From an uncultured Candidatus Saccharibacteria bacterium (GTDB taxonomy: Bacteria > Patescibacteriota > Minisyncoccia > UBA6257 > 1-14-0-10-40-38), in the NCBI GenBank assembly GCA_964543265.1, contig CAZIWN010000001.1, forward strand, positions 104,577-168,576: a stretch of DNA of 64,000 nucleotides, in the 5' to 3' direction. The number at the start of each line of letters is the position of its first letter. Position 1 is the stretch's first letter. The notes under the pieces are model-generated. The model had not been told where the DNA came from, made no database searches, and was given only the letters and a program-made list of their open reading frames with translations. Made by a program: the position numbers and the translations under genes. Shown here in pieces: positions 5,216 through 64,000 of the stretch.

Positions 5216-6310
5216 ATGGCAGACGATTACTATAAAATTTTAGGCGTTGAAAAAAACGCTTCCGAAGAAGATATTAAGCGCGCTTATAGAAAAATGGCCC
5301 ACAAACATCACCCAGATAAATCTGGTGGCGATGAGGCCGCTTTTAAAAAGGTAAACGAGGCTTATCAAATTCTTTCTAATAAGGAAAAGCGTGCTCAATA
5401 CGATAAGTATGGTCGCGTTTTTGAGGGCGGCCAAGGGGGTGGTTTCAACGGCTTTCATGGTGGCAATCCTTTCGGCCAAGGAGGTTTTAATTTTGATTTC
5501 GGAAATATGGAAGATTTGGGCGATATGTTCGGCTCAATTTTCGAGGGTTTTGGAATGGGTGGCAAGCGCAAACAATATGAGCGCGGCGCCGATCTGGAAA
5601 TTCATCAAGAAATAGCTTTAAAAGAAGCCTATACGGGTATTGTTAAGAAACTTAAATTCAGCACAAAAATCAGTTGCGATAAATGTTCCGGAGTCGGACA
5701 CTTCCCAGAAAGCGGTTTCACTAAATGCGCCACCTGCGACGGCAAAGGAGAAATTAAAGAAACCAAGAGAACTTTCTTCGGTAATTTTGCCGAAGTTAGA
5801 AAATGCTCTAAATGTCGTGGGTTAGGCAAAATTCCTCATCGTCTCTGTTCTTCTTGTGAGGGTTTAGGTAGGCGAGTTGGAGAAAAAAATGTTGAGGTTA
5901 ATATTGGAGCCGGAATTGAGGATGGGCAGATTATAAAAGTAAATGGAGCCGGAGAATCTGGCGAGGCGGGAACTGACCCAGGGGACTTATATGTCAGAAT
6001 TAAGGTTTTAAAAGATAAAAAGTGGGAAAGACGAGGAGATGATCTTTTAGCTAGGCACGAAACAAGTTTAATAGATTTACTTATAACCAGATCTTTTGAG
6101 GTAGAAAATATTATAGGAGAAAAAATAAAATTAGAGCTTCCTGGAGGATTTAAGCTTGGAGATGAATTAGTTGTCTCTGGTGGTGGAATGCCCCGTCTAG
6201 GAGGATTTAGCAGGGGAAAGATGATTATTAAGCTAGAAGCTCAAATTCCAAAGAAATTAAATTCAAAAGCTAAAGAATTACTCGAACAACTTAAAAGAGA
6301 AGTAGATTAA
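5216..6310 (+). CDS. dnaJ: Chaperone DnaJ.
   Basis: J-domain with HPD (YYKILGV...HPDK), a G/F-rich linker and four CxxCxGxG zinc-finger repeats. Confidence 0.95.
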
Positions 6311-6317
6311 ATTTAAA

Positions 6318-6357
6318 ACCGCCTCCTGCATCTCGTTGGTGCAGTGGCGGTTTTTTG
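6318..6357 (+). terminator. Rho-independent terminator of the dnaK operon.
   Basis: Stem ACCGCC...GGCGGT followed by TTTTTT. Confidence 0.8.
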
Positions 6358-6363
6358 TTTGTA

Positions 6364-6483
6364 TCATCCCGTTGCAATAAACCACAGAATGATGAGAAAG
6401 ATGATGGTTGACCATCTCATGTTGAGGATCGAGCACTTCCATGGCTCAGGTTCGCTTACTGTTGGTTCTGGTCGCCTTTTCAT
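6364..6483 (-). CDS. 39-aa hydrophobic peptide (MKRRPEPTVSEPEPWKCSILNMRWSTIIFLIILWFIATG) in a GC-elevated segment.
   Basis: SD site AAGGGGG lies 6 nt upstream of the ATG. The C-terminal half is hydrophobic. It is absent from the 60-aa ORF track and I translated it by hand. Confidence 0.35.
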   Translation of the reverse strand: MKRRPEPTVSEPEPWKCSILNMRWSTIIFLIILWFIATG

Positions 6484-6522
6484 TTTTAACCCCCTTAATC
6501 TAATGAACTAATTTTATTATAT

Positions 6523-6585
6523 AAATTAAAACCACCCACAGCAACCGTAGTCGCTGGGGTGGTTCTGCGTCAGATTGTCTGACGC
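6523..6585 (-). terminator. Two tandem hairpins downstream of the islet lipoprotein gene: GCGTCAGA/TCTGACGC, then CCACCC...GGGTGG followed by a T-tract on the minus strand.
   Basis: Perfect 8-bp and 6-bp stems. The minus-strand sequence continues as TTTTAATTT. Confidence 0.6.
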
Positions 6586-6878
6586 TAGTTCGTCGCGGAG
6601 ATGGTCTCCGCGAGGCGCTCGAGGCCATCGTTCAGCTTCTCGAGGCCGTCGATGATCTTCTCCATCTCGATCGTCTGCTCGCGCATCCGCTCGAGATCGG
6701 TGTCGTCGCTCTTGACGACGTTCGGCAGCATGCGGTCGCGCATCTCGTCGTAGGCCTCCACCTTCTTCGTCGGCACCTCCTCCTTGGCGGGGGAGACGCA
6801 GCCGACGGACAGGAGGCAGAAGAAGGCGGCGATCCAGAACCCGTAGTTGAACGCGAGCATGTTTCGAAGCAAACGCAT
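6585..6878 (-). CDS. Small secreted or lipoprotein-like protein of 97 aa, GC-rich codons.
   Basis: Signal peptide with a lipobox-like LLSVGC. SD site CAAGGGAAAGGGAAAG is upstream of the ATG, and a consensus promoter lies upstream on the minus strand. Confidence 0.55.
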   Translation of the reverse strand: MRLLRNMLAFNYGFWIAAFFCLLSVGCVSPAKEEVPTKKVEAYDEMRDRMLPNVVKSDDTDLERMREQTIEMEKIIDGLEKLNDGLERLAETISATN

Positions 6879-6987
6879 TTTCTTCTTTCCCTTTCCCTTG
6901 GAAAGCTATTCTCTCGCAAGAAGGCGCTCGCCCTCATCGCAAAAGAATGCTTATTTGTTAATGTTCAATCTAACCCTAACCTTTGTA

Positions 6988-7017
6988 ATTATAGCACAAT
7001 ATATTGATATTTGTCAA
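6988..7017 (-). promoter_or_regulatory. Near-perfect sigma70 promoter with extended -10 (TTGACA-18-TGcTATAAT), copy A of the repeated promoter module.
   Basis: Read on the minus strand: CTATTGACAAATATCAATATATTGTGCTATAAT. Confidence 0.7.
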
Positions 7018-7020
7018 TAG

Positions 7021-7074
7021 ATAAGAAAGCCAATAAAATAATAGCCCCGGGTGCGCATTTGCGCATTCCGGGGC
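7021..7074 (-). terminator. Terminator of the 123-aa islet gene: GCCCCGG...CCGGGGC stem with an inner GTGCGCA/TGCGCAT palindrome, followed by a T-rich tract on the minus strand.
   Basis: Read from the sequence. Confidence 0.6.
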
Positions 7075-7080
7075 AGTAGT

Positions 7081-7452
7081 TCAGCTCGAAGCGGTAGCGG
7101 TGGCGGGGAACATCTCGCGAAGTTCCGCGCGAATCTCCTGGGCGAACCTGGTCATCGCCAAGCGCCATTCATCTTCATCGGTATGGATCCTGAGCTTTTT
7201 GGGCCAATACTTCGGGTCGCGCTTGGCCTTGGCCATGTCTGCAAGGTAGACCATCGCATCGAATCCTGTCTTGGCGTTGTTGTCTCCCGGCTTCAGTTCG
7301 AAGTCGAACGACATCTCGCCAATCCCATCGAAATCGGGCGCGGTCACGAAAGCAACGAGCTCTTCGTAGCTTCCAAGACCAAGCCATCCTTCCGGCGCCT
7401 GCTTCTTGCCGGGAAGAAAATGAAGGTCGTCAAGAAAAACATTCCTTTCCAT
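7081..7452 (-). CDS. Hypothetical 123-aa protein, GC-rich codons, unknown function.
   Basis: Clean ORF with SD site AAGGGA upstream of the ATG. Its own promoter (TTGACA-17-TAAACT at 7503-7531, minus strand) and its own terminator flank it. Composition is unlike that of the flanking genes. Confidence 0.5.
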   Translation of the reverse strand: MERNVFLDDLHFLPGKKQAPEGWLGLGSYEELVAFVTAPDFDGIGEMSFDFELKPGDNNAKTGFDAMVYLADMAKAKRDPKYWPKKLRIHTDEDEWRLAMTRFAQEIRAELREMFPATATASS

Positions 7453-7574
7453 TTTTCCCTTGTCTCCGCTTGGGTTTTTCTTTCCCTTAGGTGCTGACGT
7501 ATAGTTTAGCCCAAAACACCCAATTTGTCAAAGTTATATTAATCTACTATCTTATGCTAAAATTACATAAATAA

Positions 7575-14115: not shown

Positions 14116-14216
14116 TGTTGGATAAATCATTAAGCTAACCTTCTCCTGAGTTGGAGAAAAGGGTCTGCTGGTCACCCTAAAAGACTAGCAACGGTTCTTT
14201 GACAAGGGAGAGAGTC

Positions 14217-14417
14217 ATGAACAGTCACATGCACCCGCACGATCACGATCACGGCGTTCGCGCTTCCGACGATCGGCATCACGGTGTTCACGGCGACCAC
14301 AGTGATCACAGCGACAGTGGCCACAGGCACCACAGGGGTGCGCACGGTCACGATCACAAGGCGCACGGTCACCACCACGGGTCGGTCCACAAGCAGAAGA
14401 GGGGCGGCGCGCACTGA
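14217..14417 (+). CDS. Histidine-rich 66-aa peptide (about 38% His) with GC-rich codons; likely metal binding.
   Basis: SD site AAGGGAG lies 6 nt upstream of the ATG at 14217. The run is MNSHMHPHDHDHG...HGHDHKAHGHHHGSVH. A terminator follows. Confidence 0.55.
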   Translation: MNSHMHPHDHDHGVRASDDRHHGVHGDHSDHSDSGHRHHRGAHGHDHKAHGHHHGSVHKQKRGGAH

Positions 14418-14493
14418 TTTCGTATTCCGCGATTTGTCAGAGATGTCATCATGAAGTCTTTTCCAAGTCCGAAGTCCGGTATTCAATACGAAA

Positions 14494-14538
14494 AAGGAGT
14501 TGATCACGATACGTCGAGATCAACTCCTTTTAATTTTT
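14494..14538. terminator. Bidirectional terminator AAGGAGTTGATC...GATCAACTCCTT followed by a T-tract.
   Basis: 12-bp perfect stem. Confidence 0.8.
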
Positions 14539-25248: not shown

Positions 25249-25407
25249 ATGTTTGAAAATTTTAAAAATTGGTTTAAAGAAAATGAAAAGAAGATATTAT
25301 TTATCCTTATAATATTTCTAAGTATCACTTTAAGTTTAGGATTAGGATTCTTGCTTGGAAAAAAATCAAAAGTCACACCAATTATTATCGAGAAAAATTC
25401 AAATTAA
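25249..25407 (+). CDS. 52-aa single-TM peptide (MFENFKNWFKENEKKILFILIIFLSITLSLGLGFLLGKK...).
   Basis: Hand-translated small ORF in native AT-rich sequence, followed by a strong terminator. Confidence 0.35.
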   Translation: MFENFKNWFKENEKKILFILIIFLSITLSLGLGFLLGKKSKVTPIIIEKNSN

Positions 25408-25414
25408 ATTTTAA

Positions 25415-25456
25415 GTGCCACCTCCAGCGCTTGCGCTAAATAGGTGGCACTTTTTC
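25415..25456. terminator. Terminator GTGCCACCT...AGGTGGCAC followed by TTTTT; also T-rich on the minus strand.
   Basis: 9-bp perfect stem. Confidence 0.8.
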
Positions 25457-25466
25457 TTCCCCGTCT

Positions 25467-25688
25467 TCAGTTCAGGACGGTGACGAATCTCCCGATTGGT
25501 GTGAAGACTTGTTCACCGTCGACGATCTCGAGTTGTCCGAGAACTTCGCCACATCCCGGTACGGGGCAAGAAACGTTTGAGTGTTTGCAGGACGGGGCAG
25601 CGACCTTGCACTGGCCATACCTTCCTTCCCACTTGCAAACGCACCTGATCTGCGTCTCCGCACCGCACTCCTTCTGACTCATCGTCAT
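25467..25688 (-). CDS. Cys-rich 73-aa protein with 8 Cys (CGAETQIRCVCKWEGRYGQCKVAAPSCKHSNVSCPVPGCG) and GC-rich codons.
   Basis: SD site AGGAGG lies 9 nt upstream of the ATG at 25688. It is wedged between a terminator and the rnpB promoter. Confidence 0.5.
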   Translation of the reverse strand: MTMSQKECGAETQIRCVCKWEGRYGQCKVAAPSCKHSNVSCPVPGCGEVLGQLEIVDGEQVFTPIGRFVTVLN

Positions 25689-25761
25689 TTCTTTCCGCCT
25701 CCTGAAGCTGGATTCGAAACTAGACATAATAATAACAATAATTAAGCCAAAAAGGCAAGAT

Positions 25762-25790
25762 TTGTCTATTTTTAATATTTATGGTATACT
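25762..25790 (+). promoter_or_regulatory. rnpB promoter TTGTCT-17-TATACT.
   Basis: Spacing places the transcription start near 25797, which is the first nucleotide of the P1 helix. Confidence 0.55.
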
Positions 25791-25796
25791 TTTAAA

Positions 25797-26141
25797 GTCG
25801 CTTAGGTGATTACACGGCATCGCAAAAAAATGCCGTGAGGAAAGTCTGGACTCCTGTCTTGCGAGAAATCGCAAGTAAACGTACCGGTTAAAAGCCGGCT
25901 GGGTAATCCAAGAGGTGCGAAAAGTGACGCTCAAAGACGAAAGAATTTGAGAATCCGCTTGCGGATTAACCTTCTCTATAGTGAAGGAGAGGGGTGCAAC
26001 GGCTAAATCCTTACGAGGTGCAAGATCGTGCTCTAAATTAAAACTTAGAGAGAATCGCTTGAGCCTTAAAGTAATTTAGGGCCTAGATAAATTATCACCG
26101 CTTCGCCGAAAGGCGGAAACAGAATCCGGCTTATTAGCGAC
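25797..26141 (+). ncRNA. rnpB: RNase P RNA (bacterial type A).
   Basis: Conserved GAGGAAAGUCUGGACUCC (P4 5' strand), ACAGAAUCCGGCUUA (P4 3' strand) and a P1 pairing GTCGCT/AGCGAC, followed by a terminator. Confidence 0.85.
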
Positions 26142-26155
26142 AAAAAATATCAGAA

Positions 26156-26180
26156 GTCCGCGCCTAAAGCGCGGATTTTT
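26156..26180 (+). terminator. rnpB terminator TCCGCGC ctaaa GCGCGGA followed by TTTTT.
   Basis: Read from the sequence. Confidence 0.8.
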
Positions 26181-26196
26181 GATATATGGTTTAATA

Positions 26197-26225
26197 TTGC
26201 TTTTATGACAACAATCTGTTATTAT
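26197..26225 (+). promoter_or_regulatory. Candidate promoter TTGCTT-17-TATTAT for the small membrane ORF.
   Basis: Read from the sequence. Confidence 0.4.
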
Positions 26226-26269
26226 GATTAACAGTTCTTCGGTTAAGGTCATTGGGAGGGAAGGCCTTG

Positions 26270-26458
26270 GTGGAATTCGGAAAGAGGCTTTGCTTCGCTC
26301 TGGTCTGGACTGTTTCCTGGGTTCTTCCGAAGGAATCTAGGGACGAGGAAGAAGAGGTGAGTGGTGTCTTGAAGCTTCTCCTCTTCGCCCTTGTCGGAGT
26401 TGGAACGGCCTTGGTTCTTCACTTCTATCGGATGAGGCAAAACTTCATCCAGATTTGA
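26270..26458 (+). CDS. Small two-TM membrane protein of 62 aa from the GTG start (68 aa if the TTG at 26252 is used), GC-rich.
   Basis: SD site GGGAGGGAAGG lies 5 nt upstream of the GTG. Two hydrophobic helices are separated by an acidic EEEE loop. A terminator follows. Confidence 0.45.
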   Translation: MEFGKRLCFALVWTVSWVLPKESRDEEEEVSGVLKLLLFALVGVGTALVLHFYRMRQNFIQI

Positions 26459-26477
26459 AAGAAGGCCAAGTGTCTCA

Positions 26478-26558
26478 AATGGCGTGCTGCCACCAAGTAG
26501 CGCGCCATTTTTTTTGTAAAAAAAGACCACCCATTACTCGCTCGCGAGCTAGGGTGGT
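26478..26558. terminator. Pair of convergent terminators sharing a central T8/A7 tract: ATGGCG...CGCCAT followed by T8 on the plus strand, and ACCACCC...GGGTGGT followed by a T-tract on the minus strand.
   Basis: Read from the sequence. Confidence 0.65.
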
Positions 26559-26570
26559 TTTCTGTCGCTG

Positions 26571-26789
26571 TTAACGAGGAGTAGTCGCTTCCCCGAACAG
26601 CATCGGTACTTCTATCAGATGCTTTTTATTGCATCCCTTCTTGCATTTCGGATGCGTCGAGCTCCCAAAATATGTATTGCCCTTTGGGATCTTACCACCG
26701 CACCCAGTGCAGGTACGATCCAAATGGGCAACATGATGTTCTGGAACCTCATCATCCTCTTCGTCGCTTCCGCCGTTGCCTCCACGCAT
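26571..26789 (-). CDS. Small zinc-ribbon protein of 72 aa from the ATG (CTGCGGKIPKGNTYFGSSTHPKCKKGC), acidic N-terminus.
   Basis: SD site GGGGAGGG lies upstream of the ATG. Its own promoter TTGAAA-17-TATAGT (26845-26873, minus strand) and its own terminator flank it. Confidence 0.5.
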   Translation of the reverse strand: MRGGNGGSDEEDDEVPEHHVAHLDRTCTGCGGKIPKGNTYFGSSTHPKCKKGCNKKHLIEVPMLFGEATTPR

Positions 26790-26876
26790 TGGGTTCGCCC
26801 TCCCCGTGAATGGATTGATGGTCAAGAAACGTGTACTGATATTTACTATAAAACATTCTTAAATAATTTTCAAAAT

Positions 26877-26920
26877 GAAAAGGCCCGGCTAGAACTATAC
26901 GTTCTATAACCGGACCTTTT
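26877..26920. terminator. Bidirectional terminator with a long imperfect stem GGCCCGGCTAGAAC tatac GTTCTATAACCGGACC, flanked by A4 and T4.
   Basis: Read from the sequence. Confidence 0.65.
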
Positions 26921-26946
26921 GCTCCGTCTTGCGGAGCCGTCGCCTT

Positions 26947-27153
26947 TCAGGCGGTGGCAACTGCGAGTTGCCGGCTCTCGGCGCGGAGCTCTGCGAGTTC
27001 TCCGCTCGAGAACAGATTGAGCAGTTCAGGCCACGTCGGCATCCTGCCGAGCTTCCGAGCCTTCCGCGCGATGATCTGCCGCATCGTGGGCACCGCGACC
27101 TCTTCTGAGCACTGATCGCAACCATTCGCGCAGCACTTGGATTCGCACGCCAT
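26947..27153 (-). CDS. Cys-rich 68-aa protein (N-terminal CESKCCANGCDQC, basic/helical C-terminus).
   Basis: A GGGGGG tract lies 7 nt upstream of the ATG. Copy B of the consensus promoter sits about 90 nt upstream. Confidence 0.5.
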   Translation of the reverse strand: MACESKCCANGCDQCSEEVAVPTMRQIIARKARKLGRMPTWPELLNLFSSGELAELRAESRQLAVATA

Positions 27154-27246
27154 CGTAGTTCCCCCCGAATGCCATTCTGATTTCGCCCTAAGGCTCGTCA
27201 GAGGACTTGTGAATGACTAGGGCCAATCCCTTATCATCACTCCTAT

Positions 27247-27276
27247 ATTATATCATACAATATATTAATTTGTCAA
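27247..27276 (-). promoter_or_regulatory. Near-perfect sigma70 promoter TTGACA-18-TGaTATAAT, copy B of the repeated promoter module.
   Basis: Read on the minus strand: CTATTGACAAATTAATATATTGTATGATATAAT. Confidence 0.7.
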
Positions 27277-27469
27277 TAGATAAAGCATAAAAAGCTAATA
27301 AAATAAGGATTTTAATATAAAAAATCTTAAAAATAAGGATTTTTTAACAACTCCAAATTTTCACCTCTTTACAAATTAAATTTACTTTGATATAATATGG
27401 AAATGAAGGTTGGACTCAAATCGTTATTAATAGTAGCGATGAGTCCAAAAAATAATTTAAAATAACTAT

Positions 27470-34502: not shown

Positions 34503-34532
34503 TTGACAATATATCTATTTAGGGAATAAAAT
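34503..34532 (+). promoter_or_regulatory. Consensus-like promoter TTGACA-18-TAAAAT at the start of a GC-rich islet.
   Basis: Read from the sequence. Confidence 0.6.
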
Positions 34533-34590
34533 TAAATTCCACGCGCTTTAAGAGGAAGCGCGCAGAAATCACTTGTCGAAGGGAGATTGA

Positions 34591-34821
34591 ATGGGTGCGA
34601 AGAGGGGATCTACGGTGAGGCAGGGATCTGTTGGCGGCGCCTCTTCTTCTACTGTCTTGAACCGACTGGCTCAACCCGACTGGAAGTTCAAGGGGGTTGA
34701 ACCGATTCGCGGGGCGATGAAGGGGTGCAGGTCTTGCACCTTCGATGGCGTGCCTCACGGTCAGTTCAGGGTGGGTGGTCCGAGGGGCGTCGTCTCCAGG
34801 TGTCCTTGCACGAACAGGTGA
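34591..34821 (+). CDS. Small 76-aa ORF (CRSC...CPC) in a GC-rich islet; coding status uncertain.
   Basis: SD site GAAGGGAG lies 6 nt upstream of the ATG. The Gly/Arg/Ser/Val-rich composition is typical of a random GC-rich translation. A 5' UTR hairpin CGCGCTT/AAGCGCG precedes it and a strong terminator follows. Confidence 0.35.
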   Translation: MGAKRGSTVRQGSVGGASSSTVLNRLAQPDWKFKGVEPIRGAMKGCRSCTFDGVPHGQFRVGGPRGVVSRCPCTNR

Positions 34822-34825
34822 TTTT

Positions 34826-34866
34826 TCAGCCCGGCTTTCCGAAAAGGAAGCCGGGCTGTATAATTT
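34826..34866 (+). terminator. Terminator CAGCCCGGCTTTCC gaaaa GGAAGCCGGGCTG followed by TATAATTTAT.
   Basis: 13-bp near-perfect stem. Confidence 0.8.
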
Positions 34867-34872
34867 ATATAA

Positions 34873-37334: not shown

Positions 37335-38399
37335 TTGTTGAACTATCTAATGAATAAAAAACTAAAAATCACTCTACTTTTTGGAGGAAAATCAGCCGAA
37401 CACGAAGTTTCTATGCTTTCGGCAAAAAATGTTTTTAATGCTCTTGATAAGAATAAATACGAAGTTTTTTTAATCGGAATTGATAAAACGGGTTATTGGA
37501 GTTTTTTTGAAGACTCCAAAATCTTATCCGAAAAAAGCATAGAAAAAATAAACAGAAATCATAATGGATTCTTAGATCCCAACTGCGGAAAAATTTTAGT
37601 TGATTCAGATGTAATTTTTCCAGTCCTCCACGGTGGCACAGGAGAAGATGGAACAATTCAAGGATTTTTCAAATTAATAAATAAACCATTCGTCGGCCCA
37701 GGAGTTTTAGGGTCTGCTTTGGGGATGGATAAAGATGTAGCTAAGCGCTTATTAAATCAAGCGGGGATTGCTACGGCTAAATTTATTACTCTTAGAGATT
37801 ATGAAAATATAGATTTTAAAAAAATAAAAAAACAGCTAGGGCTTCCGCTTTTTATAAAACCAGCCAACTCCGGTTCTTCGATCGGAGTTTCTAAAGTTAA
37901 AAAAGAATCAGAATTTACACTAGCCATTAAAGAGGCTTTTAAATACGATAGTAAAATATTAATCGAAGAATTTATAGACGGCAGACAAATTGAATGTTCT
38001 ATATTGGGAAATGATAATCCAATAGCTTCAATCCCAGGAGAAGTTATCACAACTCATGAATTTTATTCATACGAGGCAAAATATTTAGACAAAAACGGTG
38101 CAATTCTAGAAATTCCAGCTAAATTAAATAAAAAAATCTCTAAACAAATTCAAGAAATATCATTAAAAACTTTTAAAGTCTTAGAATGTTTTGGTTTAAG
38201 TCGTGTCGATCTTTTTTTAGATAAAAAGGGAAAGATTTATGTTAATGAAATAAACACTCTTCCAGGATTCACTTCAATCAGTATGTATCCCAAACTCTGG
38301 GAAGCTAGCGGAATAAGTTATTCAGATTTAATAGATAAACTCATCGAATTAGCAATAGAAAAATTTAAAAAAGACAGTAAATTAAAAACTTCTTATTAA
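37335..38399 (+). CDS. ddl: D-alanine--D-alanine ligase.
   Basis: N-terminal KI.LLFGGKSAEHEVS..SA and an ATP-grasp domain. Confidence 0.9.
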   Translation: MLNYLMNKKLKITLLFGGKSAEHEVSMLSAKNVFNALDKNKYEVFLIGIDKTGYWSFFEDSKILSEKSIEKINRNHNGFLDPNCGKILVDSDVIFPVLHGGTGEDGTIQGFFKLINKPFVGPGVLGSALGMDKDVAKRLLNQAGIATAKFITLRDYENIDFKKIKKQLGLPLFIKPANSGSSIGVSKVKKESEFTLAIKEAFKYDSKILIEEFIDGRQIECSILGNDNPIASIPGEVITTHEFYSYEAKYLDKNGAILEIPAKLNKKISKQIQEISLKTFKVLECFGLSRVDLFLDKKGKIYVNEINTLPGFTSISMYPKLWEASGISYSDLIDKLIELAIEKFKKDSKLKTSY

Positions 38400-38445
38400 A
38401 AATTAAACCGCCAGGACCCTTGTTGGGCGCTGGCGGCGTTTAGTT
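38400..38445. terminator. Bidirectional terminator CCGCCAG...CTGGCGG.
   Basis: A-tract upstream; T-tract on the minus strand. Confidence 0.65.
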
Positions 38446-38451
38446 CAATAC

Positions 38452-38802
38452 TTAGCCCGTAGGCTCAGTATACGTAGCATCAAGAATAAAACTCTTCTTT
38501 TGATCAAAGGTTCCACTGAATTTATCATCTCCGCGCTTAACAGCAATTCTAACAGGAACCCACACGTGTCCGAATGTTGCATCTGCCTTGCGATACATCG
38601 TACAGGTTACCGAAACCGGAAGCAGGCCCTGAGCTGGTCCACGATTTTTAAGACTTAAGGTAAATGTTCTGATGTCCAGAAACCGCGTAGCTTCGATATC
38701 CATAGCATTCCACACGGAGTCATTATCTCCGTCAACCGTGCTAATTGCGATTTGCGTCATCCTGATTGCCAAAAGCACGCCAGCAGCCAAGCTCATTTTC
38801 AT
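38452..38802 (-). CDS. Secreted 116-aa protein (signal peptide MKMSLAAGVLLAIRMTQIAIS), GC-rich codons.
   Basis: SD site GGAG lies 6 nt upstream of the ATG at 38802. Copy C of the consensus promoter lies upstream. Confidence 0.5.
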   Translation of the reverse strand: MKMSLAAGVLLAIRMTQIAISTVDGDNDSVWNAMDIEATRFLDIRTFTLSLKNRGPAQGLLPVSVTCTMYRKADATFGHVWVPVRIAVKRGDDKFSGTFDQKKSFILDATYTEPTG

Positions 38803-38940
38803 CGGACATCTCCTTGTCAAAAGGGGATTCACTCCAGGGGTCAACCCAGAAAGTGGCAGCCATCACGGCAGCACCTTAGAAGCAAGAATAAGTCTTCTTT
38901 CCAAAGTGCCACCGTGACAACCTCTCAATATGCTTATAAA

Positions 38941-38970
38941 ATTATAGCACAATATTACTATAAAAGTCAA
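38941..38970 (-). promoter_or_regulatory. Near-perfect sigma70 promoter TTGACT-18-TGcTATAAT, copy C of the repeated promoter module.
   Basis: Read on the minus strand: CTATTGACTTTTATAGTAATATTGTGCTATAAT. Confidence 0.7.
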
Positions 38971-39029
38971 TAGTCACAAAACCCATATAAATTAGTCAAA
39001 ATAGGTCATTTAGGTTATTATAAATTCCA

Positions 39030-40157
39030 ATGAAAGAGGAAAAAATCTACAAAACCTGGATTGAGCTCAATAGCAAAAATCTAAAAAACAATATCTCGAT
39101 ATTTAAAGGTTTATTAGATAAAAAAACCAAGCTTTTCGCTGTTGTTAAATCTAATGCCTATGGCCATGGATTAGAGGATTTTTCTAGAATTGCGGATAAA
39201 TTCAAAGTTGATGGTTTTTGCGTTGATTCAATAATTGAAGGAATTAAATTGAGAAATATCGGCATCACAAAACCAATTCTAGTTATAGGGCCTTCAATTC
39301 CAGGAAATTCATTATTAGATGCCAAGAAAAACGACATAACTATTTCCATTTCCAATTTAGAGGCTTTAAAAATTTATTCTACCTCAAAAGCCAAGCCAGA
39401 TTTTCATCTTAAAATAGATACGGGCATGCATCGCCAAGGATTGCAGATTTTTGAAATAAACGATGCTATTAATATTATTAAAAAGAAAAAACTTCCAATT
39501 AATGGCGTTTATACCCATTTTGCCTCAGCTAAAGATCCTAAAAATACCGAATTCACCAATAAACAATTTAATGAATTTAAAGAAGTTATTAAATTATTAG
39601 AAACTGCCGGCTTGAAAGATTTAGCCAAACACTGTTCCGCAACTGGTGGAACTTTATTAGATAAAAAATATCATCTAGATATGGTTCGTGTCGGCATCGG
39701 TCTTTATGGAATTTATCCAAGCGATGAGCTTAAAAAAGAATTTCAGGAAAAATATAAATTACTTCCAGTTTTATCCTGGAAAGCGCTTGTAAGCGAAATA
39801 AAAGAAGTTAAATCTGGCGAAGGAATAAGTTATGACTTAACCGAAAAATTAAATAAAAATTCAAAAATTGCCATCATTCCAATTGGTTATTGGCACGGCT
39901 ATCCTAGAAGCCTAACCAGTGTTGGAAAAATTTTAATAAATGGCATTGAGTGTAAGGTTTTGGGCAGAGTTTGTATGGATATGATTATAGTTGATGTTTC
40001 TAGTATGAAAGATGTGAATCTGGGAAATATTTCTATTTTAATTGGAAAATCTGAAACTGCAGAAATATCTTTGGAAAATATTTCTGAATTAGCAGGAGTT
40101 TCTACTTATGAGTTTGTTACCAGAATAAATCCATTAATTAAAAAAGTAGTAATTTAA
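39030..40157 (+). CDS. alr: Alanine racemase.
   Basis: PLP site AVVKSNAYGHG. Confidence 0.9.
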   Translation: MKEEKIYKTWIELNSKNLKNNISIFKGLLDKKTKLFAVVKSNAYGHGLEDFSRIADKFKVDGFCVDSIIEGIKLRNIGITKPILVIGPSIPGNSLLDAKKNDITISISNLEALKIYSTSKAKPDFHLKIDTGMHRQGLQIFEINDAINIIKKKKLPINGVYTHFASAKDPKNTEFTNKQFNEFKEVIKLLETAGLKDLAKHCSATGGTLLDKKYHLDMVRVGIGLYGIYPSDELKKEFQEKYKLLPVLSWKALVSEIKEVKSGEGISYDLTEKLNKNSKIAIIPIGYWHGYPRSLTSVGKILINGIECKVLGRVCMDMIIVDVSSMKDVNLGNISILIGKSETAEISLENISELAGVSTYEFVTRINPLIKKVVI

Positions 40158-41352: not shown

Positions 41353-41353
41353 A

Positions 41354-41382
41354 TTGACATTTAGATTCCTTATTGTTAAAAT
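41354..41382 (+). promoter_or_regulatory. Consensus promoter TTGACA-17-TAAAAT.
   Basis: Read from the sequence. Confidence 0.65.
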
Positions 41383-41389
41383 TGTAGGA

Positions 41390-41707
41390 CAAGCGAGTTT
41401 AGAGGTCGCAAGTCAGCCTTCTGACGCCAAAGTTCTCAAGCTCCTTCTTCGCACTTCGCAAGCGTCTTTAGGTCTAAAAAATGGACTCTCGACCTTCATC
41501 GGGAGTTGACCTTCCGTTTTCACTGGTCACAAATCCAGTGACCGCTGGCTAACCGATTACGACCAGGTTATCCGACACGGTGAGTAATCTCTGGGACAAT
41601 TAGATGTAACTAACCAGGGAGCGGTAAGAAATTGCGCCTCAAAAACTCGCGCGGTGCCCCAAGCTTCGAGCAGGGTGAAAGACAACCCTGCTCGAAGCTA
41701 CTTTTTT
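41390..41707 (+). ncRNA. Candidate ncRNA of about 320 nt (GC about 50%), bounded by the consensus promoter and a 15-bp perfect hairpin terminator AGCTTCGAGCAGGGT...ACCCTGCTCGAAGCT followed by T6.
   Basis: No ORF longer than 28 aa on either strand and no SD site. Identity unknown; I found no match to tmRNA, SRP RNA or RNase P RNA motifs. Confidence 0.45.
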
Positions 41708-41723
41708 AAAATAAATATAAAAC

Positions 41724-45318: not shown

Positions 45319-45332
45319 ATTCTAAACTTTAA

Positions 45333-45366
45333 AAAGGCAAATCTTGTATAGATTTGCCTTTTTAAA
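45333..45366 (+). terminator. Terminator GGCAAATCT tgtata AGATTTGCC followed by TTTTT.
   Basis: Read from the sequence. Confidence 0.8.
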
Positions 45367-45379
45367 TACTATATGTTAT

Positions 45380-45638
45380 CCTTATAAGCGTCGGTAGGGC
45401 TGACTTTGTCTTAGCTCTGATAAGTGGGACACTTTGTGCCCACAACGAAATTCGGCGAATAGAGAGGCGTGGTCGCAAGATCACAATAGCTCCTCTCGTC
45501 AGAGTACGAGCAAATCAGCCCTACCGACACCATTTCAAAAACAAGGCACACGGTGCTGCTGGTACCCCCCCGTACCAGACACCGCTGAGTCACTGGTCCG
45601 ACGCTACCCGCAAGGGCGCGCTCGGACCTATTTTTTTA
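45380..45638 (+). ncRNA. Candidate structured ncRNA of about 260 nt. A 14-bp long-range helix (45390-45403 pairing with 45515-45528) encloses 111 nt. Then a GGTAC-C6-GTACC hairpin and a terminator GTCCGA...TCGGAC followed by T7.
   Basis: No credible ORF. Helices read directly from the sequence. Possible promoter TTGTAT-18-TACTAT (45344-45373). Confidence 0.4.
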
Positions 45639-45649
45639 CAATCTTAATT

Positions 45650-45676
45650 AAAACCCCGCCAATCGGCGGGGTTTTC
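45650..45676. terminator. Bidirectional terminator AAAACCCCGCC aatc GGCGGGGTTTT; it also terminates typA.
   Basis: Read from the sequence. Confidence 0.8.
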
Positions 45677-62469: not shown

Positions 62470-62520
62470 AATTAAAAAGCCCCTCTCCTATCTCTTTCGA
62501 GTATAGGATTGGGGCTTTCG
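62470..62520 (-). terminator. Minus-strand terminator AAAGCCCC...GGGGCTTT followed by a T-tract on the minus strand.
   Basis: Read from the sequence. Confidence 0.6.
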
Positions 62521-62521
62521 T

Positions 62522-63220
62522 TCAGTGATTCCAGTTTGTAGCGACTTCGCTACCAAACTGGTTTGCCAGACAATTCCTGAAGCGTTCGTCTTCCTCCTTT
62601 TCCCTCTTCAGGATGTCTCCAATTCCCTGCTGGTTCTCTTCGAGCTTCTCGAAGCTCATTCCGCAGAAGGCGCTTCTCGCCAATTCTTCGCAGTTGCGAA
62701 GCTTGGCAAAGCCGACGACGAGATCATTCAGCTGGGACGGCGACAAATCGTGGGGGTTGATCTCAGGCAAGGTCTCGAATAGATTCATCGCCATCTTTTG
62801 GAGATGATCGAGATCCATCTTGCCTTCTGGGTCCTGCAAGTAATTCCAGGATTGATGATCAACCAAGCTCTTCTTATGGAGCTTGGTAAGTTCGTGCTTG
62901 AGAAAATCGTTTTCCTTCTTCAGGGCTTCGATTTCCTCGTGAGCGCTTGTGAGCTCTTGGGTGAGCTCGAGGATGTTGCTCTGGCTCTCGCCAGTTTCGA
63001 TCTGAGGCTCGATTGCGCTCCTCTCGGCAACGATCTCCGTTTCCGGAGCCGTCGGCGCAAGTGTCACAGCCTGGTAGGCTTCGATCTTGGTAGGGTCATC
63101 TCCAACGAAGTTTTGTTGAGGGTGACAACCATAATCGACGCCGTGATTGTTGTTTCCTGAAATTGCGAACATGGCAACGCAGAAAACAACAAGCGCAATC
63201 AATCCGACAATTCGCTTCAT
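62522..63220 (-). CDS. Secreted coiled-coil protein of 232 aa with GC-rich codons.
   Basis: Signal or TM anchor MKRIVGLIALVVFCVAMFAISG, heptad-rich middle and SD site AAAGGAG upstream. Second gene of a two-gene minus-strand operon. Confidence 0.55.
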   Translation of the reverse strand: MKRIVGLIALVVFCVAMFAISGNNNHGVDYGCHPQQNFVGDDPTKIEAYQAVTLAPTAPETEIVAERSAIEPQIETGESQSNILELTQELTSAHEEIEALKKENDFLKHELTKLHKKSLVDHQSWNYLQDPEGKMDLDHLQKMAMNLFETLPEINPHDLSPSQLNDLVVGFAKLRNCEELARSAFCGMSFEKLEENQQGIGDILKREKEEDERFRNCLANQFGSEVATNWNH

Positions 63221-63249
63221 AGCTGACAGCTCCTTTGTCTTTCGAGTGA

Positions 63250-63295
63250 TCCCGGAAGGATCTCTTTCACTACTTAAGCCGAGATCCTTCCGGGA
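63250..63295 (-). promoter_or_regulatory. Perfect 15-bp intercistronic hairpin TCCCGGAAGGATCTC...GAGATCCTTCCGGGA with no U-tract.
   Basis: Sits between two co-oriented genes; possible processing, stability or attenuation element. Confidence 0.45.
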
Positions 63296-63311
63296 ATCTT
63301 CTCGGCTGCCG

Positions 63312-63851
63312 TCAGTTGTGGATCTTGTTGTTCGAGCCCTGGTAGTTTTCGACGTTGGCGTCGCTCCTGCCGTTCAAGTCAACGTCGTTGCCGTTGTTCC
63401 CGCCATCGGGACCAGTGAGCAACCCACCACCTTCGAAGTCGTGATCGTTGTTGTCGCAGTTCTTCTCGTTGACGCCGCCACCGTTCTTGATGTCGATGTC
63501 ATTCCCGTCGCAATCGTCCAGCTTGATCTTGCCGCCATCGGCATCGATCTCGTCGCCGTTCAGGCCTTCACCGCGGGCCAGTACGCCCTTCTTGATGGTG
63601 ATCTTGGCCTTCACGTAGTCGCCGTGATTCCAGATCTCTTCGACGACGACGTTGTCCGCGCTGTCTGGGCTGTTGGTGACCTTTCCTTCTCCGTCCGGAG
63701 CGGTCCAGGTCTGGCCAGGTCCCAGGCGAGTCGTGTGCGTTCCCGATGACGATCCGCTCGTCGCCGCGTTGGCGACCGACGTCCCTCCTCCGATCGCGAA
63801 GATCGCGACCAGAGCGAGTGCGAGCAAGGCGAAAATCTTCCTCGGATTCAT
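63312..63851 (-). CDS. Secreted Asp/Gly/Asn-rich protein with DxDxDG-like repeats; putative Ca2+-binding protein.
   Basis: Signal peptide MNPRKIFALLALALVAIFAIGGGTSVANA. Loops DADGGKIKLDD, DGNDIDIKNGG and DNNDHDFEGGG. SD site AGGAG upstream. Confidence 0.55.
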   Translation of the reverse strand: MNPRKIFALLALALVAIFAIGGGTSVANAATSGSSSGTHTTRLGPGQTWTAPDGEGKVTNSPDSADNVVVEEIWNHGDYVKAKITIKKGVLARGEGLNGDEIDADGGKIKLDDCDGNDIDIKNGGGVNEKNCDNNDHDFEGGGLLTGPDGGNNGNDVDLNGRSDANVENYQGSNNKIHN

Positions 63852-64000
63852 GCGTTCACTCCTGTGTTTTGGCCCGTTTTCGGTTCTTAAGCGAAATCGG
63901 GCTTAAGCCTACCTCCCCTTCTTTCGTCGCTGTTTTGTCAAGGTGCTACGAATCTAGGGCTACACACCCCAGTTTCATACTTAACATTACTCCTTTAACA

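What the first reader, a model, noticed from the sequence alone, without database searches (positions are those of the whole stretch)
38400..39000. Islet 8: secreted 116-aa protein driven by promoter copy C, convergent with ddl
The protein has a signal peptide (MKMSLAAGVLLAIRMTQIAIS) followed by a beta-rich body (…TFTLSLKNRGPAQGLLPVSVTCTMYRKADATFGHVWVPVRIAVKRGDDKF…). Codons are GC-rich and the SD site is GGAG. No family was recognised. It may be an exported effector or adhesin fragment of foreign origin.
Basis: seen in the sequence. Interest (0 to 1): 0.5.

Follow-up and report, generated by a model that had tools for sequence, protein, structure and literature searches.

The report
Orphan exported-protein gene in swap slot
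A real but family-less 116-codon gene for a probably exported small protein sits, with its own promoter and terminator, in a spot between two cell-wall genes where three related candidate-phyla bacteria each carry a different, unrelated GC-rich gene behind the same promoter.

Summary
On the minus strand there is a near-consensus promoter (38970-38941), a ~130-nt leader, an AAGGAG ribosome-binding site, a 116-codon ORF (38802-38452) and a hairpin terminator shared with convergent ddl.

The ORF is longer than chance gives (P about 0.007). It shows in-frame coding signatures and is GC-enriched at all three codon positions relative to host genes.

It has no homologue in 1.8-5.8 billion proteins and no hit in Pfam, PHROGs, NCBIfam, PADLOC, PDB, phage, plasmid or viral sets. 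AlphaFold2 failed (pLDDT 35-37).

The N-terminus fits a Sec signal peptide or signal anchor. This is unverified.

New finding: in two related Paceibacteria-like genomes (about 80% nucleotide identity) the same ddl-alr gap keeps the promoter and early leader. One of them also keeps the terminator. Each carries a different GC-rich coding sequence, unrelated in any frame.

The unit therefore resembles a phage "moron" or a Neisseria "minimal mobile element", but on a chromosome.

"Foreign origin" is supported. "Exported" is plausible. "Effector or adhesin fragment" has no support beyond a short DUF11-like motif. Function is unknown. Interest is moderate and lies mainly in the swap slot.

The parts
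38941..38977 (-). Sigma-70-type promoter ('copy C'): -35 TTGACT at 38970-38965, 18-nt spacer, TG-extended -10 TATAAT at 38946-38941, with AT-rich upstream flank
   Evidence: 11 of 12 matches, TG present. (repeat family D1/D4 with 6988-7024 and 27247-27283); conserved in L082 and L086, whereas everything downstream diverges.
38803..38934 (-). Predicted 5' untranslated leader (~130 nt). The transcription start near 38934 is inferred from the -10 position, not mapped
   Evidence: fold dG -53.6, z -5.0. The first ~35 nt align with the L082/L086 leaders. The SD-ATG region is weakly similar to L086 (10 of 500 shuffles reach the score).
38858..38922 (-). 65-nt leader hairpin: 24 contiguous pairs plus a 4-bp inner stem, 8 of the pairs G.U
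   Evidence: dG -38.9 kcal/mol, z -9.4 on the transcribed strand, against -19.7 on the opposite strand. Only microRNA-like noise in Rfam.
38810..38815 (-). Shine-Dalgarno AAGGAG, 7 nt upstream of ATG 38802
   Evidence: Read directly from the sequence. In the leader fold it is partly paired with an upstream CCCCUU.
38452..38802 (-). Coding sequence: 116 aa plus TAA stop; an orphan protein
   Evidence: coding statistics; GC by codon position; no homologue but itself. Gene callers chose 116 aa (Logan) or 114 aa from the second ATG (NCBI).
38740..38802 (-). Codons 1-21: signal-peptide-like N-terminus MKMSLAAGVLLAIRMTQIAIS, candidate cleavage AIS|TV
   Evidence: hydropathy and -3/-1 rule. Not verified with a dedicated predictor.
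38398..38436 (.). Hairpin (38436-38408) plus T/A tract, acting as a bidirectional intrinsic terminator for the ORF and for convergent ddl
   Evidence: dG -22.9 on minus, -22.5 on plus. It is homologous to the L086 terminator, with a compensatory change in the inner stem (GCCC/GGGU versus ACUC/GAGU).
37335..38399 (+). ddl (D-Ala-D-Ala ligase): conserved left flank of the slot
   Evidence: Pfam Dala_Dala_lig. Homology to L082/L086 stops at its stop codon or at the terminator.
39030..40157 (+). alr (alanine racemase): conserved right flank of the slot, divergent from the cargo promoter
   Evidence: 87% aa identity to P0008. Homology to L082/L086 resumes exactly at 38940.

Best explanation
This is an autonomous, moron-like transcription unit. 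It occupies a hypervariable slot between the housekeeping genes ddl and alr on the chromosome of an AT-rich Paceibacteria-like (Patescibacteria/CPR) bacterium.

Shown:
- A near-consensus promoter, conserved among three related genomes, faces a GC-enriched cargo.
- The cargo consists of a structured ~130-nt leader, an AAGGAG ribosome-binding site, a 116-codon ORF with genuine coding signatures, and a hairpin terminator shared with convergent ddl.
- The coding sequence is specific to this lineage. The two related genomes carry unrelated GC-rich coding sequences at the same place.

Inferred:
- The gene was acquired from a higher-GC source and is partly ameliorated. GC3 has fallen to 0.44 while GC1 and GC2 remain high.
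- Cargo is exchanged by recombination through the conserved flanks (promoter/leader on one side, terminator or ddl on the other), with no mobility gene of its own.
- The product is taken to the Sec translocon by its N-terminal hydrophobic segment. It ends up outside the single membrane, either as a free ~10.6-kDa beta-rich domain or as one anchored by its N-terminus.
- There it serves as a strain-specific cell-envelope accessory factor. My best guess is surface interaction or exclusion (host-cell contact, or blocking phage or competitors), by analogy with what phage morons often encode.
- The leader hairpin probably tunes mRNA stability or processing.
For: - Architecture.
- Coding reality: ORF length P 0.006-0.009; in-frame purine-1, RNY and codon-likelihood signals.
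- Composition: GC1/2/3 of 0.50/0.44/0.44 against host 0.43/0.33/0.25.
- Slot behaviour: homology of L082 and L086/L087 to the window stops at ddl or the terminator and resumes at 38940. The three cargos (116, 150 and 147 aa) are unrelated by BLASTP, tblastx and blastn. The other two have GC3 of 0.67 and 0.85 in the coding frame.
- Retained control regions: L082 and L086 share the whole ~105-nt leader up to the start codon (0 of 500 shuffles). The window and L086 share the terminator, with a compensatory stem change.
- No integrase, transposase or shared att-like repeat.
- Export signal.
- Islet cargos can be selected proteins: the cargo of a neighbouring slot, shared by L082 and L086, has dN/dS 0.37.
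- Genuine sequence: identical in three assemblies.
Against: - No homologue exists, so there is no conservation or dN/dS test for this particular ORF.
- AlphaFold2 gave no confident fold (pLDDT 35 and 37.5).
- The hydrophobic core is short and is followed by Arg14, and no SignalP-type predictor was run.
- GC content is nearly flat across codon positions, unlike the other islet genes.
- There are no expression data.
- Only three lineages sample the slot, all about 80% identical in DNA. Cargo turnover could therefore be slow and ordinary.
- The proposed function is by analogy only.
Confidence: 0.55

Rival explanations
1. The unit is real and coding, but the product is not secreted. The N-terminal segment is either an uncleaved membrane anchor that keeps the domain at the membrane, or part of a cytoplasmic protein.
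For: - The 19-residue hydropathy of 1.67 just reaches a transmembrane threshold.
- Arg14 interrupts the hydrophobic stretch.
- The cargos at the same slot in L082 and L086 have no signal peptide.
Against: - The n/h/c layout and a single AIS|TV site fit signal peptidase I.
- Several other islet genes in the window carry clear signal or lipoprotein signals.
Confidence: 0.17
2. The functional product is RNA. The strong promoter makes a structured transcript (long G.U-rich hairpin, terminator) that acts as a regulatory or processed RNA, and the ORF is incidental.
For: - The leader hairpin has z -9.4 and is strand-asymmetric.
- The whole transcript has z -3.1.
- Another promoter-driven GC-rich islet at 41353-41723 has no ORF and looks like a conserved RNA.
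Against: - An optimally spaced AAGGAG, an ORF of improbable length and in-frame coding signatures.
- The structure signal comes from the leader and terminator, not from the ORF body.
- No Rfam family.
- No sequence conservation of the cargo among relatives.
Confidence: 0.1
3. It is functionless captured DNA: a decaying remnant of foreign sequence that happens to lie behind a promoter kept for other reasons, such as sharing the region with the alr promoter.
For: - Orphan status.
- Partial amelioration.
- The conserved 90-nt block also holds alr's likely promoter.
Against: - The intact ORF, ribosome-binding site and terminator geometry.
- All three genomes keep an intact ORF behind this promoter.
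- The minus-strand promoter stays near consensus in all three.
Confidence: 0.1
4. The slot is part of a dedicated capture-and-express system. It would be integron-like but dispersed, installing foreign coding sequences precisely between a resident promoter/leader and a terminator, using an unrecognised recombinase and recombination sites.
For: - The break between L082 and L086 lies at the start codon, with the full leader retained.
- Promoter, leader and terminator are retained around an unrelated interior at a second slot, 34545-34824.
- The promoter module is repeated three times in the window.
- 7 of 10 near-consensus promoters precede GC-rich islets.
- Islets are unusually dense in this lineage.
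Against: - No shared att-like repeat among islets.
- No integrase or transposase in the window ORFs scanned.
- Breakpoints differ between genome pairs: about +35 versus the start codon at the 5' side, and terminator versus the ddl stop at the 3' side.
- No cargo was seen at two different slots.
Confidence: 0.08

Closest known systems
Phage 'morons' (Hendrix/Juhala concept; definition as given in PMC2920897)
   Same: - A single gene with its own promoter and terminator, inserted between two otherwise adjacent genes.
- Nucleotide composition differs from its surroundings.
- It sits at a hotspot where different units occupy the same place in related genomes.
- The cargo is of the small envelope or hypothetical-protein type.
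   Different: - It sits among housekeeping genes of a cellular chromosome, not in a phage or prophage. No phage genes are nearby.
- The promoter is resident and conserved, rather than arriving with the cargo.
- The same cargo has not been seen in any other genome.
Neisseria minimal mobile elements (Saunders & Snyder 2002; Snyder 2007; as summarised in PMC3787668)
   Same: - A region between specific conserved flanking genes that varies in composition and gene content among close relatives.
- It has no mobility genes of its own.
- Exchange through the homologous flanks is the natural explanation.
   Different: - Exchange by transformation has not been shown here.
- The genomes compared are different species (about 80% identity), not strains.
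- Identical cassettes in distant strains, the hallmark evidence in Neisseria, were not found.
- Here the homology arms appear to include the promoter/leader and the terminator, not only the flanking genes.
Integron gene cassettes
   Same: Promoterless coding sequences expressed from a resident promoter; diverse orphan small proteins; cassette-like replacement.
   Different: - No attC-like imperfect palindrome family is shared by the islets.
- No IntI-type recombinase was seen.
- The slots are dispersed singly around the chromosome rather than arrayed.
DUF11 / CARDB-type bacterial Ig-like surface repeats
   Same: Residues 34-57 (MDIEATRFLDIRTFTLSLKNRGPA) resemble the strand-N-x-G-P motif of a DUF11-type repeat in P0004 (42% over 24 aa). 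The protein has an alternating beta pattern and a likely export signal.
   Different: - No Pfam hit at E <= 1.
- hhalign probability is 5% over 17 columns.
- The large-database hits are artefacts of summing over many repeats in unrelated repetitive proteins.
- It is a single ~95-aa domain, not a repeat array, with no anchor motif.

Membership tests
Phage moron | Own promoter | tested here: met
   TTGACT-18-TATAAT with TG, 11 of 12 matches. This is a consensus match only; no transcription start was mapped.
Phage moron | Own factor-independent terminator | tested here: met
   A 12-bp hairpin, dG -22.9, z -4.5, followed by UUUAAUUUUU. The simple scanner missed it because of its interrupted stem and T-run.
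Phage moron | Nucleotide composition different from neighbours | tested here: met
   46% GC against a 35% window average. GC3 is 0.44 against 0.25 +/- 0.04.
Phage moron | Lies between two genes that are directly adjacent in related genomes | tested here: inconclusive
   No relative with an empty ddl-alr gap was found. L082 and L086 hold other cargos. The 64%-identity relative L083 has 7 kb of AT-rich genes there.
Phage moron | Resides in a phage or prophage genome | tested here: not met
   The neighbours are lysS, serS, ddl, alr, ychF and bipA-like housekeeping genes. No phage families were found nearby.
Minimal mobile element (Neisseria type) | [quoted passage not shown] | tested here: met
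   Three unrelated cargos lie between conserved ddl and alr.
Minimal mobile element (Neisseria type) | No mobility genes or terminal repeats of its own | tested here: met
   A single ORF with no family. No repeat is shared with other islets apart from the promoter.
Minimal mobile element (Neisseria type) | The same cassette is found in distantly related strains, showing transfer by flank recombination | tested here: not met
   The cargo was found only in the identical strain. Sampling of this lineage is thin.
Integron cassette | attC recombination site at the cassette 3' end, related among cassettes | tested here: not met
   All-against-all blastn of 11 islets found only promoter similarity. 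The 3' hairpins look like ordinary terminators.
Integron cassette | IntI tyrosine recombinase with attI next to the promoter | tested here: inconclusive
   None was found among the window ORFs scanned. Only 64 kb of a genome of at least 307 kb was visible.
DUF11/CARDB Ig-like domain | Significant match to the family profile | tested here: not met
   Pfam gave 0 families at E <= 1. hhalign against DUF11-type repeats gave probability 5%.
Sec signal peptide (SPase I type) | Positive n-region, hydrophobic h-region of at least 7 residues, small residues at -3 and -1 | tested here: met
   MK / LAAGVLLAI (Kyte-Doolittle 2.8) / AIS|TV. This is a rule-of-thumb test only; no trained predictor was available.

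The most novel reading that the evidence does not exclude
This Paceibacteria lineage may carry a dispersed gene-capture and expression platform. Resident promoter/leader modules (at least three paralogous copies in this window) and terminators would act as fixed docking arms. Between them, foreign GC-rich coding sequences would be installed and swapped with near start-codon precision, by an unrecognised mechanism and from an unsampled donor pool. The 116-aa gene would be one captured cargo.
Probability: 0.1. Interest if true: 0.8.

Novelty: new variant of a known kind. Interest (0 to 1): 0.4.

Why it matters
Taken alone, the gene is one more orphan small protein in a candidate-phyla genome. 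The locus matters more.

It shows a reduced, AT-rich episymbiont-type chromosome holding strongly promoted single-gene slots whose cargo turns over completely between related species. The promoter and 5' leader, and in one pair the terminator, stay in place.

In this lineage such GC-rich islets make up about 12% of the sequence. Apart from a remote cREC_REC/PHROG match for one, the cargos tested match no known family, and the two searched in the billion-protein collections have no close homologue.

If these cargos are surface or exclusion factors, they would be the variable interface between these bacteria and their hosts or phages. Their unknown GC-rich source is an open question about gene flow into Patescibacteria.

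Tried and rejected
- **Word-indexed homologue search** and **exhaustive phmmer against 1.84 billion representatives**: only the protein itself. The five other hits are highly repetitive proteins (25, 8, 7, 6 and 3 stretches) of unrelated kinds, so their E-values come from summing weak repeat matches. Rejected as homologues.
- **Family and collection searches**: Pfam, PHROGs, PADLOC, NCBIfam, PDB sequences; tblastn against phage and plasmid collections; IMG/VR scan. Nothing found.
- **AlphaFold2**: full length and mature domain gave pLDDT 35.2 and 37.5. No fold search was run, because it would be meaningless on such models.
- **DUF11 lead**: tested with BLASTP and hhalign. Motif-level similarity only.
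- **ddl scan of genome contigs**: flooded by distant ddl genes, best 60%. It did not recover close relatives.
- **Metagenome scan** with the slot-specific 21-mer CCCATATAAATTAGYCAAAAT: two chance hits inside an unrelated epimerase gene.
- **Donor hunt through other cargos**: the cREC_REC protein found only itself. Three viral scans found nothing.
- **Cargo moving between slots or paralogous cargos**: none.
- **Rfam on the islet and the whole window**: only microRNA-like hairpin noise on the leader.
- **Literature search** for GC-rich islets in Patescibacteria: nothing relevant found.

Full report
**1. What is there**

The window is AT-rich (35% GC) and carries housekeeping genes. The finding lies in the 630-bp gap between ddl (37335-38399, +) and alr (39030-40157, +). 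Reading the minus strand, the elements are, in order:

- A promoter, TTGACT-18 nt-TATAAT, preceded by TG. It matches 11 of 12 consensus positions at 38970-38941.
- A leader of about 130 nt.
- AAGGAG at 38815-38810.
- ATG at 38802 and a 116-codon ORF ending with TAA at 38452.
- After a further 15 nt, a hairpin at 38436-38408 followed by UUUAAUUUUU (dG -22.9 kcal/mol, z -4.5).

The hairpin folds equally well on the plus strand behind ddl, so the two genes converge on one bidirectional terminator.

**2. Is it more than chance, and is it coding?**

- An ORF of this length appears in 0.6-0.9% of 5000 dinucleotide-preserving shuffles of the 496-nt cargo.
- In the ORF frame, 70% of first codon positions are purines (host genes 68%).
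- The RNY codon fraction is 0.38, against 0.12 and 0.25 in the other two frames (host 0.34).
- The ORF frame has the best log-likelihood under the host codon table of all six frames.
- The optimally spaced AAGGAG and the stop codon lying just before the terminator fit a gene.

I therefore treat it as a real gene. Two gene callers agree except on which of two adjacent ATGs to use, giving 116 or 114 aa.

The sequence is not an assembly artefact. Contigs assembled from two different read sets (DRR736439, SRR12487045) are 100% identical to the window over 5.3 and 6.2 kb, and the protein also lies on a 307-kb NCBI contig.

**3. Composition**

Nineteen host genes average GC1/2/3 of 0.43/0.33/0.25 (sd about 0.04). 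This ORF has 0.50/0.44/0.44, so it is enriched at all three positions.

It lacks the steep GC3 excess of the other islet genes in the window (GC3 0.63-0.95). That fits either an older acquisition whose synonymous sites have drifted towards the host, or a donor of middling GC. This is inference.

**4. The protein**

It has no relatives:
- The word-indexed search of 5.8 billion proteins returned only itself.
- An exhaustive phmmer search of 1.84 billion cluster representatives returned itself plus five very repetitive proteins of unrelated kinds. Their scores are sums over up to 25 weak repeat matches.
- Pfam, PHROGs, PADLOC, NCBIfam, PDB sequences, phage and plasmid records and IMG/VR all gave nothing.
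- AlphaFold2 without an alignment failed for both the full-length and the mature forms (pLDDT 35 and 37.5). Both models placed only beta strands, at the same four places.

The N-terminus (MK, then LAAGVLLAI, then RMTQIAIS|TVDG) has a hydrophobic core comparable to those of clearly signal-bearing islet proteins. It has one good -3/-1 cleavage site. There is no lipobox cysteine. Export is plausible, but an uncleaved anchor is not excluded.

One lead remains. Residues 34-57 resemble the strand-NxGP motif of a DUF11-type Ig-like repeat. The profile comparison gives 5% probability, so this is not membership.

**5. The surroundings change the picture**

Homologues of alr led to two related genomes:
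- L082: NCBI GCA_009694925.1, labelled Candidatus Pacebacteria, alr 87% identical in protein.
- L086/L087: alr in the same 90%-identity cluster as the window's.

Both are about 75-85% identical to the window in DNA over about 17 kb of perfectly syntenic genes.

In both, homology to the window stops at the ddl stop codon (L082) or at the terminator (L086). It resumes exactly at 38940, the -10 box of the cargo promoter. The promoter and the first ~35 nt of the leader are conserved in all three.

Between these points each genome has a different GC-rich gene on the same strand:
- 116 aa in the window.
- 150 aa in L082 (GC3 0.67).
- 147 aa in L086 (GC3 0.85).

The three are unrelated by BLASTP, tblastx in all frames and sensitive blastn.

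L082 and L086 are 84-86% identical to each other. They share the entire ~105-nt leader up to the start codon (0 of 500 shuffles reach the alignment score) and diverge from there. The window and L086 share the terminator, with a compensatory change in its inner stem.

A more distant relative (alr 64%) has no GC-rich islet here and instead carries 7 kb of AT-rich genes.

The locus is therefore a slot in which the transcription and translation signals persist while the coding sequence is replaced.

**6. It is not the only one**

- A second slot (34545-34824) keeps its promoter, leader and a ~100% identical terminator around an interior that differs between the window and L082/L086. The cargo that L082 and L086 share there has dN/dS 0.37, so such cargos can be selected proteins.
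- Seven of the ten near-consensus promoters in the window sit directly upstream of GC-rich islets.
- The promoter modules at 7017, 27276 and 38970 are alike over about 70 nt, including upstream sequence.
This is a crude control.
- The cargos tested lack close relatives. Even the one with a Pfam domain (cREC_REC) finds only itself in the word-indexed search. None recurs at another slot.
- No integrase, transposase or shared att-like repeat was found.
- Not all islets are of this kind. One is RNase P RNA. Another, at 41353-41723, is conserved and ORF-free.

**7. The leader**

A 65-nt hairpin (38922-38858) has 24 contiguous pairs plus 4 more, and 8 of them are G.U. It folds at -38.9 kcal/mol (z -9.4) on the transcribed strand but only -19.7 on the other strand. 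That asymmetry points to function in RNA.

It starts about 13 nt from the inferred transcription start, so it is not a classic 5'-terminal protective stem. A double-strand-specific RNase site or a regulator of stability or translation is my inference. The ribosome-binding site can pair weakly with an upstream CCCCUU. No Rfam family matches.

**8. Best explanation and rivals**

The best explanation is a chromosomal, moron-like single-gene unit in a flank-defined swap slot. It encodes a lineage-specific, probably Sec-exported small beta-rich protein with an accessory envelope role (confidence 0.55).

The rivals are:
- A membrane-anchored or cytoplasmic product (0.17).
- An RNA-level function with an incidental ORF (0.10).
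- Inert captured DNA (0.10).
- A dedicated capture system (0.08).

The breakpoints differ between genome pairs. That favours ordinary recombination through conserved flanks over a site-specific mechanism, although the start-codon-precise break between L082 and L086 is unexplained.

**9. Comparison with what is known**

The unit meets the moron criteria quoted in PMC2920897 (own promoter and terminator, deviant GC, hotspot behaviour), except that it is not in a phage.

[quoted passage not shown] The diagnostic sharing of a cassette between distant strains was not seen.

It fails the integron tests applied here: no attC family was found, and no IntI was seen.

From my own knowledge, not tested here: Patescibacteria commonly encode competence and pilus genes. 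That would make flank-mediated exchange feasible.

**10. Verdict**

It is a new variant of a known kind. Interest is moderate (0.4) and comes from the conserved-signal, swapped-cargo slot and the unexplained GC-rich orphan cargo pool, not from the protein itself.

Noticed in passing
window 25797-26145 (+): Bacterial class A RNase P RNA. It scores 95.5 bits, just under Rfam's gathering score of 100 (E 7.8e-28), with a full-length model match. It is missed at the default threshold.
   Followed up: partly
window 41353-41723 (+); L082 12403-12768; L086 12440-12806: A promoter (TTGACA-17-TAAAAT) followed by about 330 nt of GC-rich sequence with no ORF and a strong terminator hairpin, upstream of ychF. 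It is conserved in both related genomes. Of 89 predicted pairs, 12 keep pairing through changes on both sides. No Rfam family matches. It is a candidate undescribed structured RNA.
   Followed up: partly
window 34503-34870 (+); L082 5400-5930: A second swap slot. The promoter, leader hairpin and a ~100% identical terminator are conserved, but the interior is unrelated between the window (76-aa Cys-containing ORF) and L082/L086. Those two share an ~84-aa Cys-rich ORF (70% identical over 89 aligned codons, dN/dS 0.37).
   Followed up: partly
window 6300-7560 (-): Three tandem GC-rich single-gene units, each with its own terminator hairpin: a 123-aa cREC_REC (PF20274) protein that also hits PHROG 1479; a 97-aa lipoprotein (lipobox LSVGC) with GC3 of 0.95; and a 39-aa membrane peptide. 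The middle unit is driven by promoter copy A.
   Followed up: partly
window, whole: Seven of the ten near-consensus sigma-70 promoters lie directly upstream of GC-rich islets. GC-rich islets make up about 12% of bases in this lineage, against 0-13% (median 0) in other AT-rich loci.
   Followed up: partly
window 25380-27300 (-): A GC-rich block around RNase P RNA holds several small Cys-rich or zinc-ribbon-like ORFs (68, 73 and 72 aa) with their own hairpin terminators. The first is behind promoter copy B (27276-27247). None has a significant Pfam match (best E 0.03-0.08, below cut-off).
   Followed up: no
window 62475-63994 (-): A 1.5-kb GC-rich island (54% GC) at the window edge encodes two proteins with clear signal peptides (232 aa and 179 aa; GC3 0.63 and 0.79). 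Neither has a family. The 232-aa protein has a weak PADLOC PDC-M33C hit, E 1e-4.
   Followed up: no
window 38993-39032 (+): alr has no Shine-Dalgarno sequence. A promoter-like TAGTCA-17-TATTAT ends 8 nt before its ATG, so alr may be translated from a leaderless or nearly leaderless mRNA. This 90-nt block is conserved in L082 and L086.
   Followed up: no
L082 15431-19013; L087 8550-10700 (corresponds to window 45319-45672): Where the window has a 350-nt GC-rich islet, the related genomes carry a PIF1-family helicase gene. L082 also carries an 88-aa GIY-YIG gene. This is another variable intergenic site.
   Followed up: no
window 14125-14522: A GC-rich islet (54% GC) next to tRNA-Gln holds a 72-aa histidine-rich ORF on the plus strand (HPHDHDHG...HGHHHG). 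It overlaps a 111-aa ORF on the minus strand, and the coding strand is unresolved.
   Followed up: no
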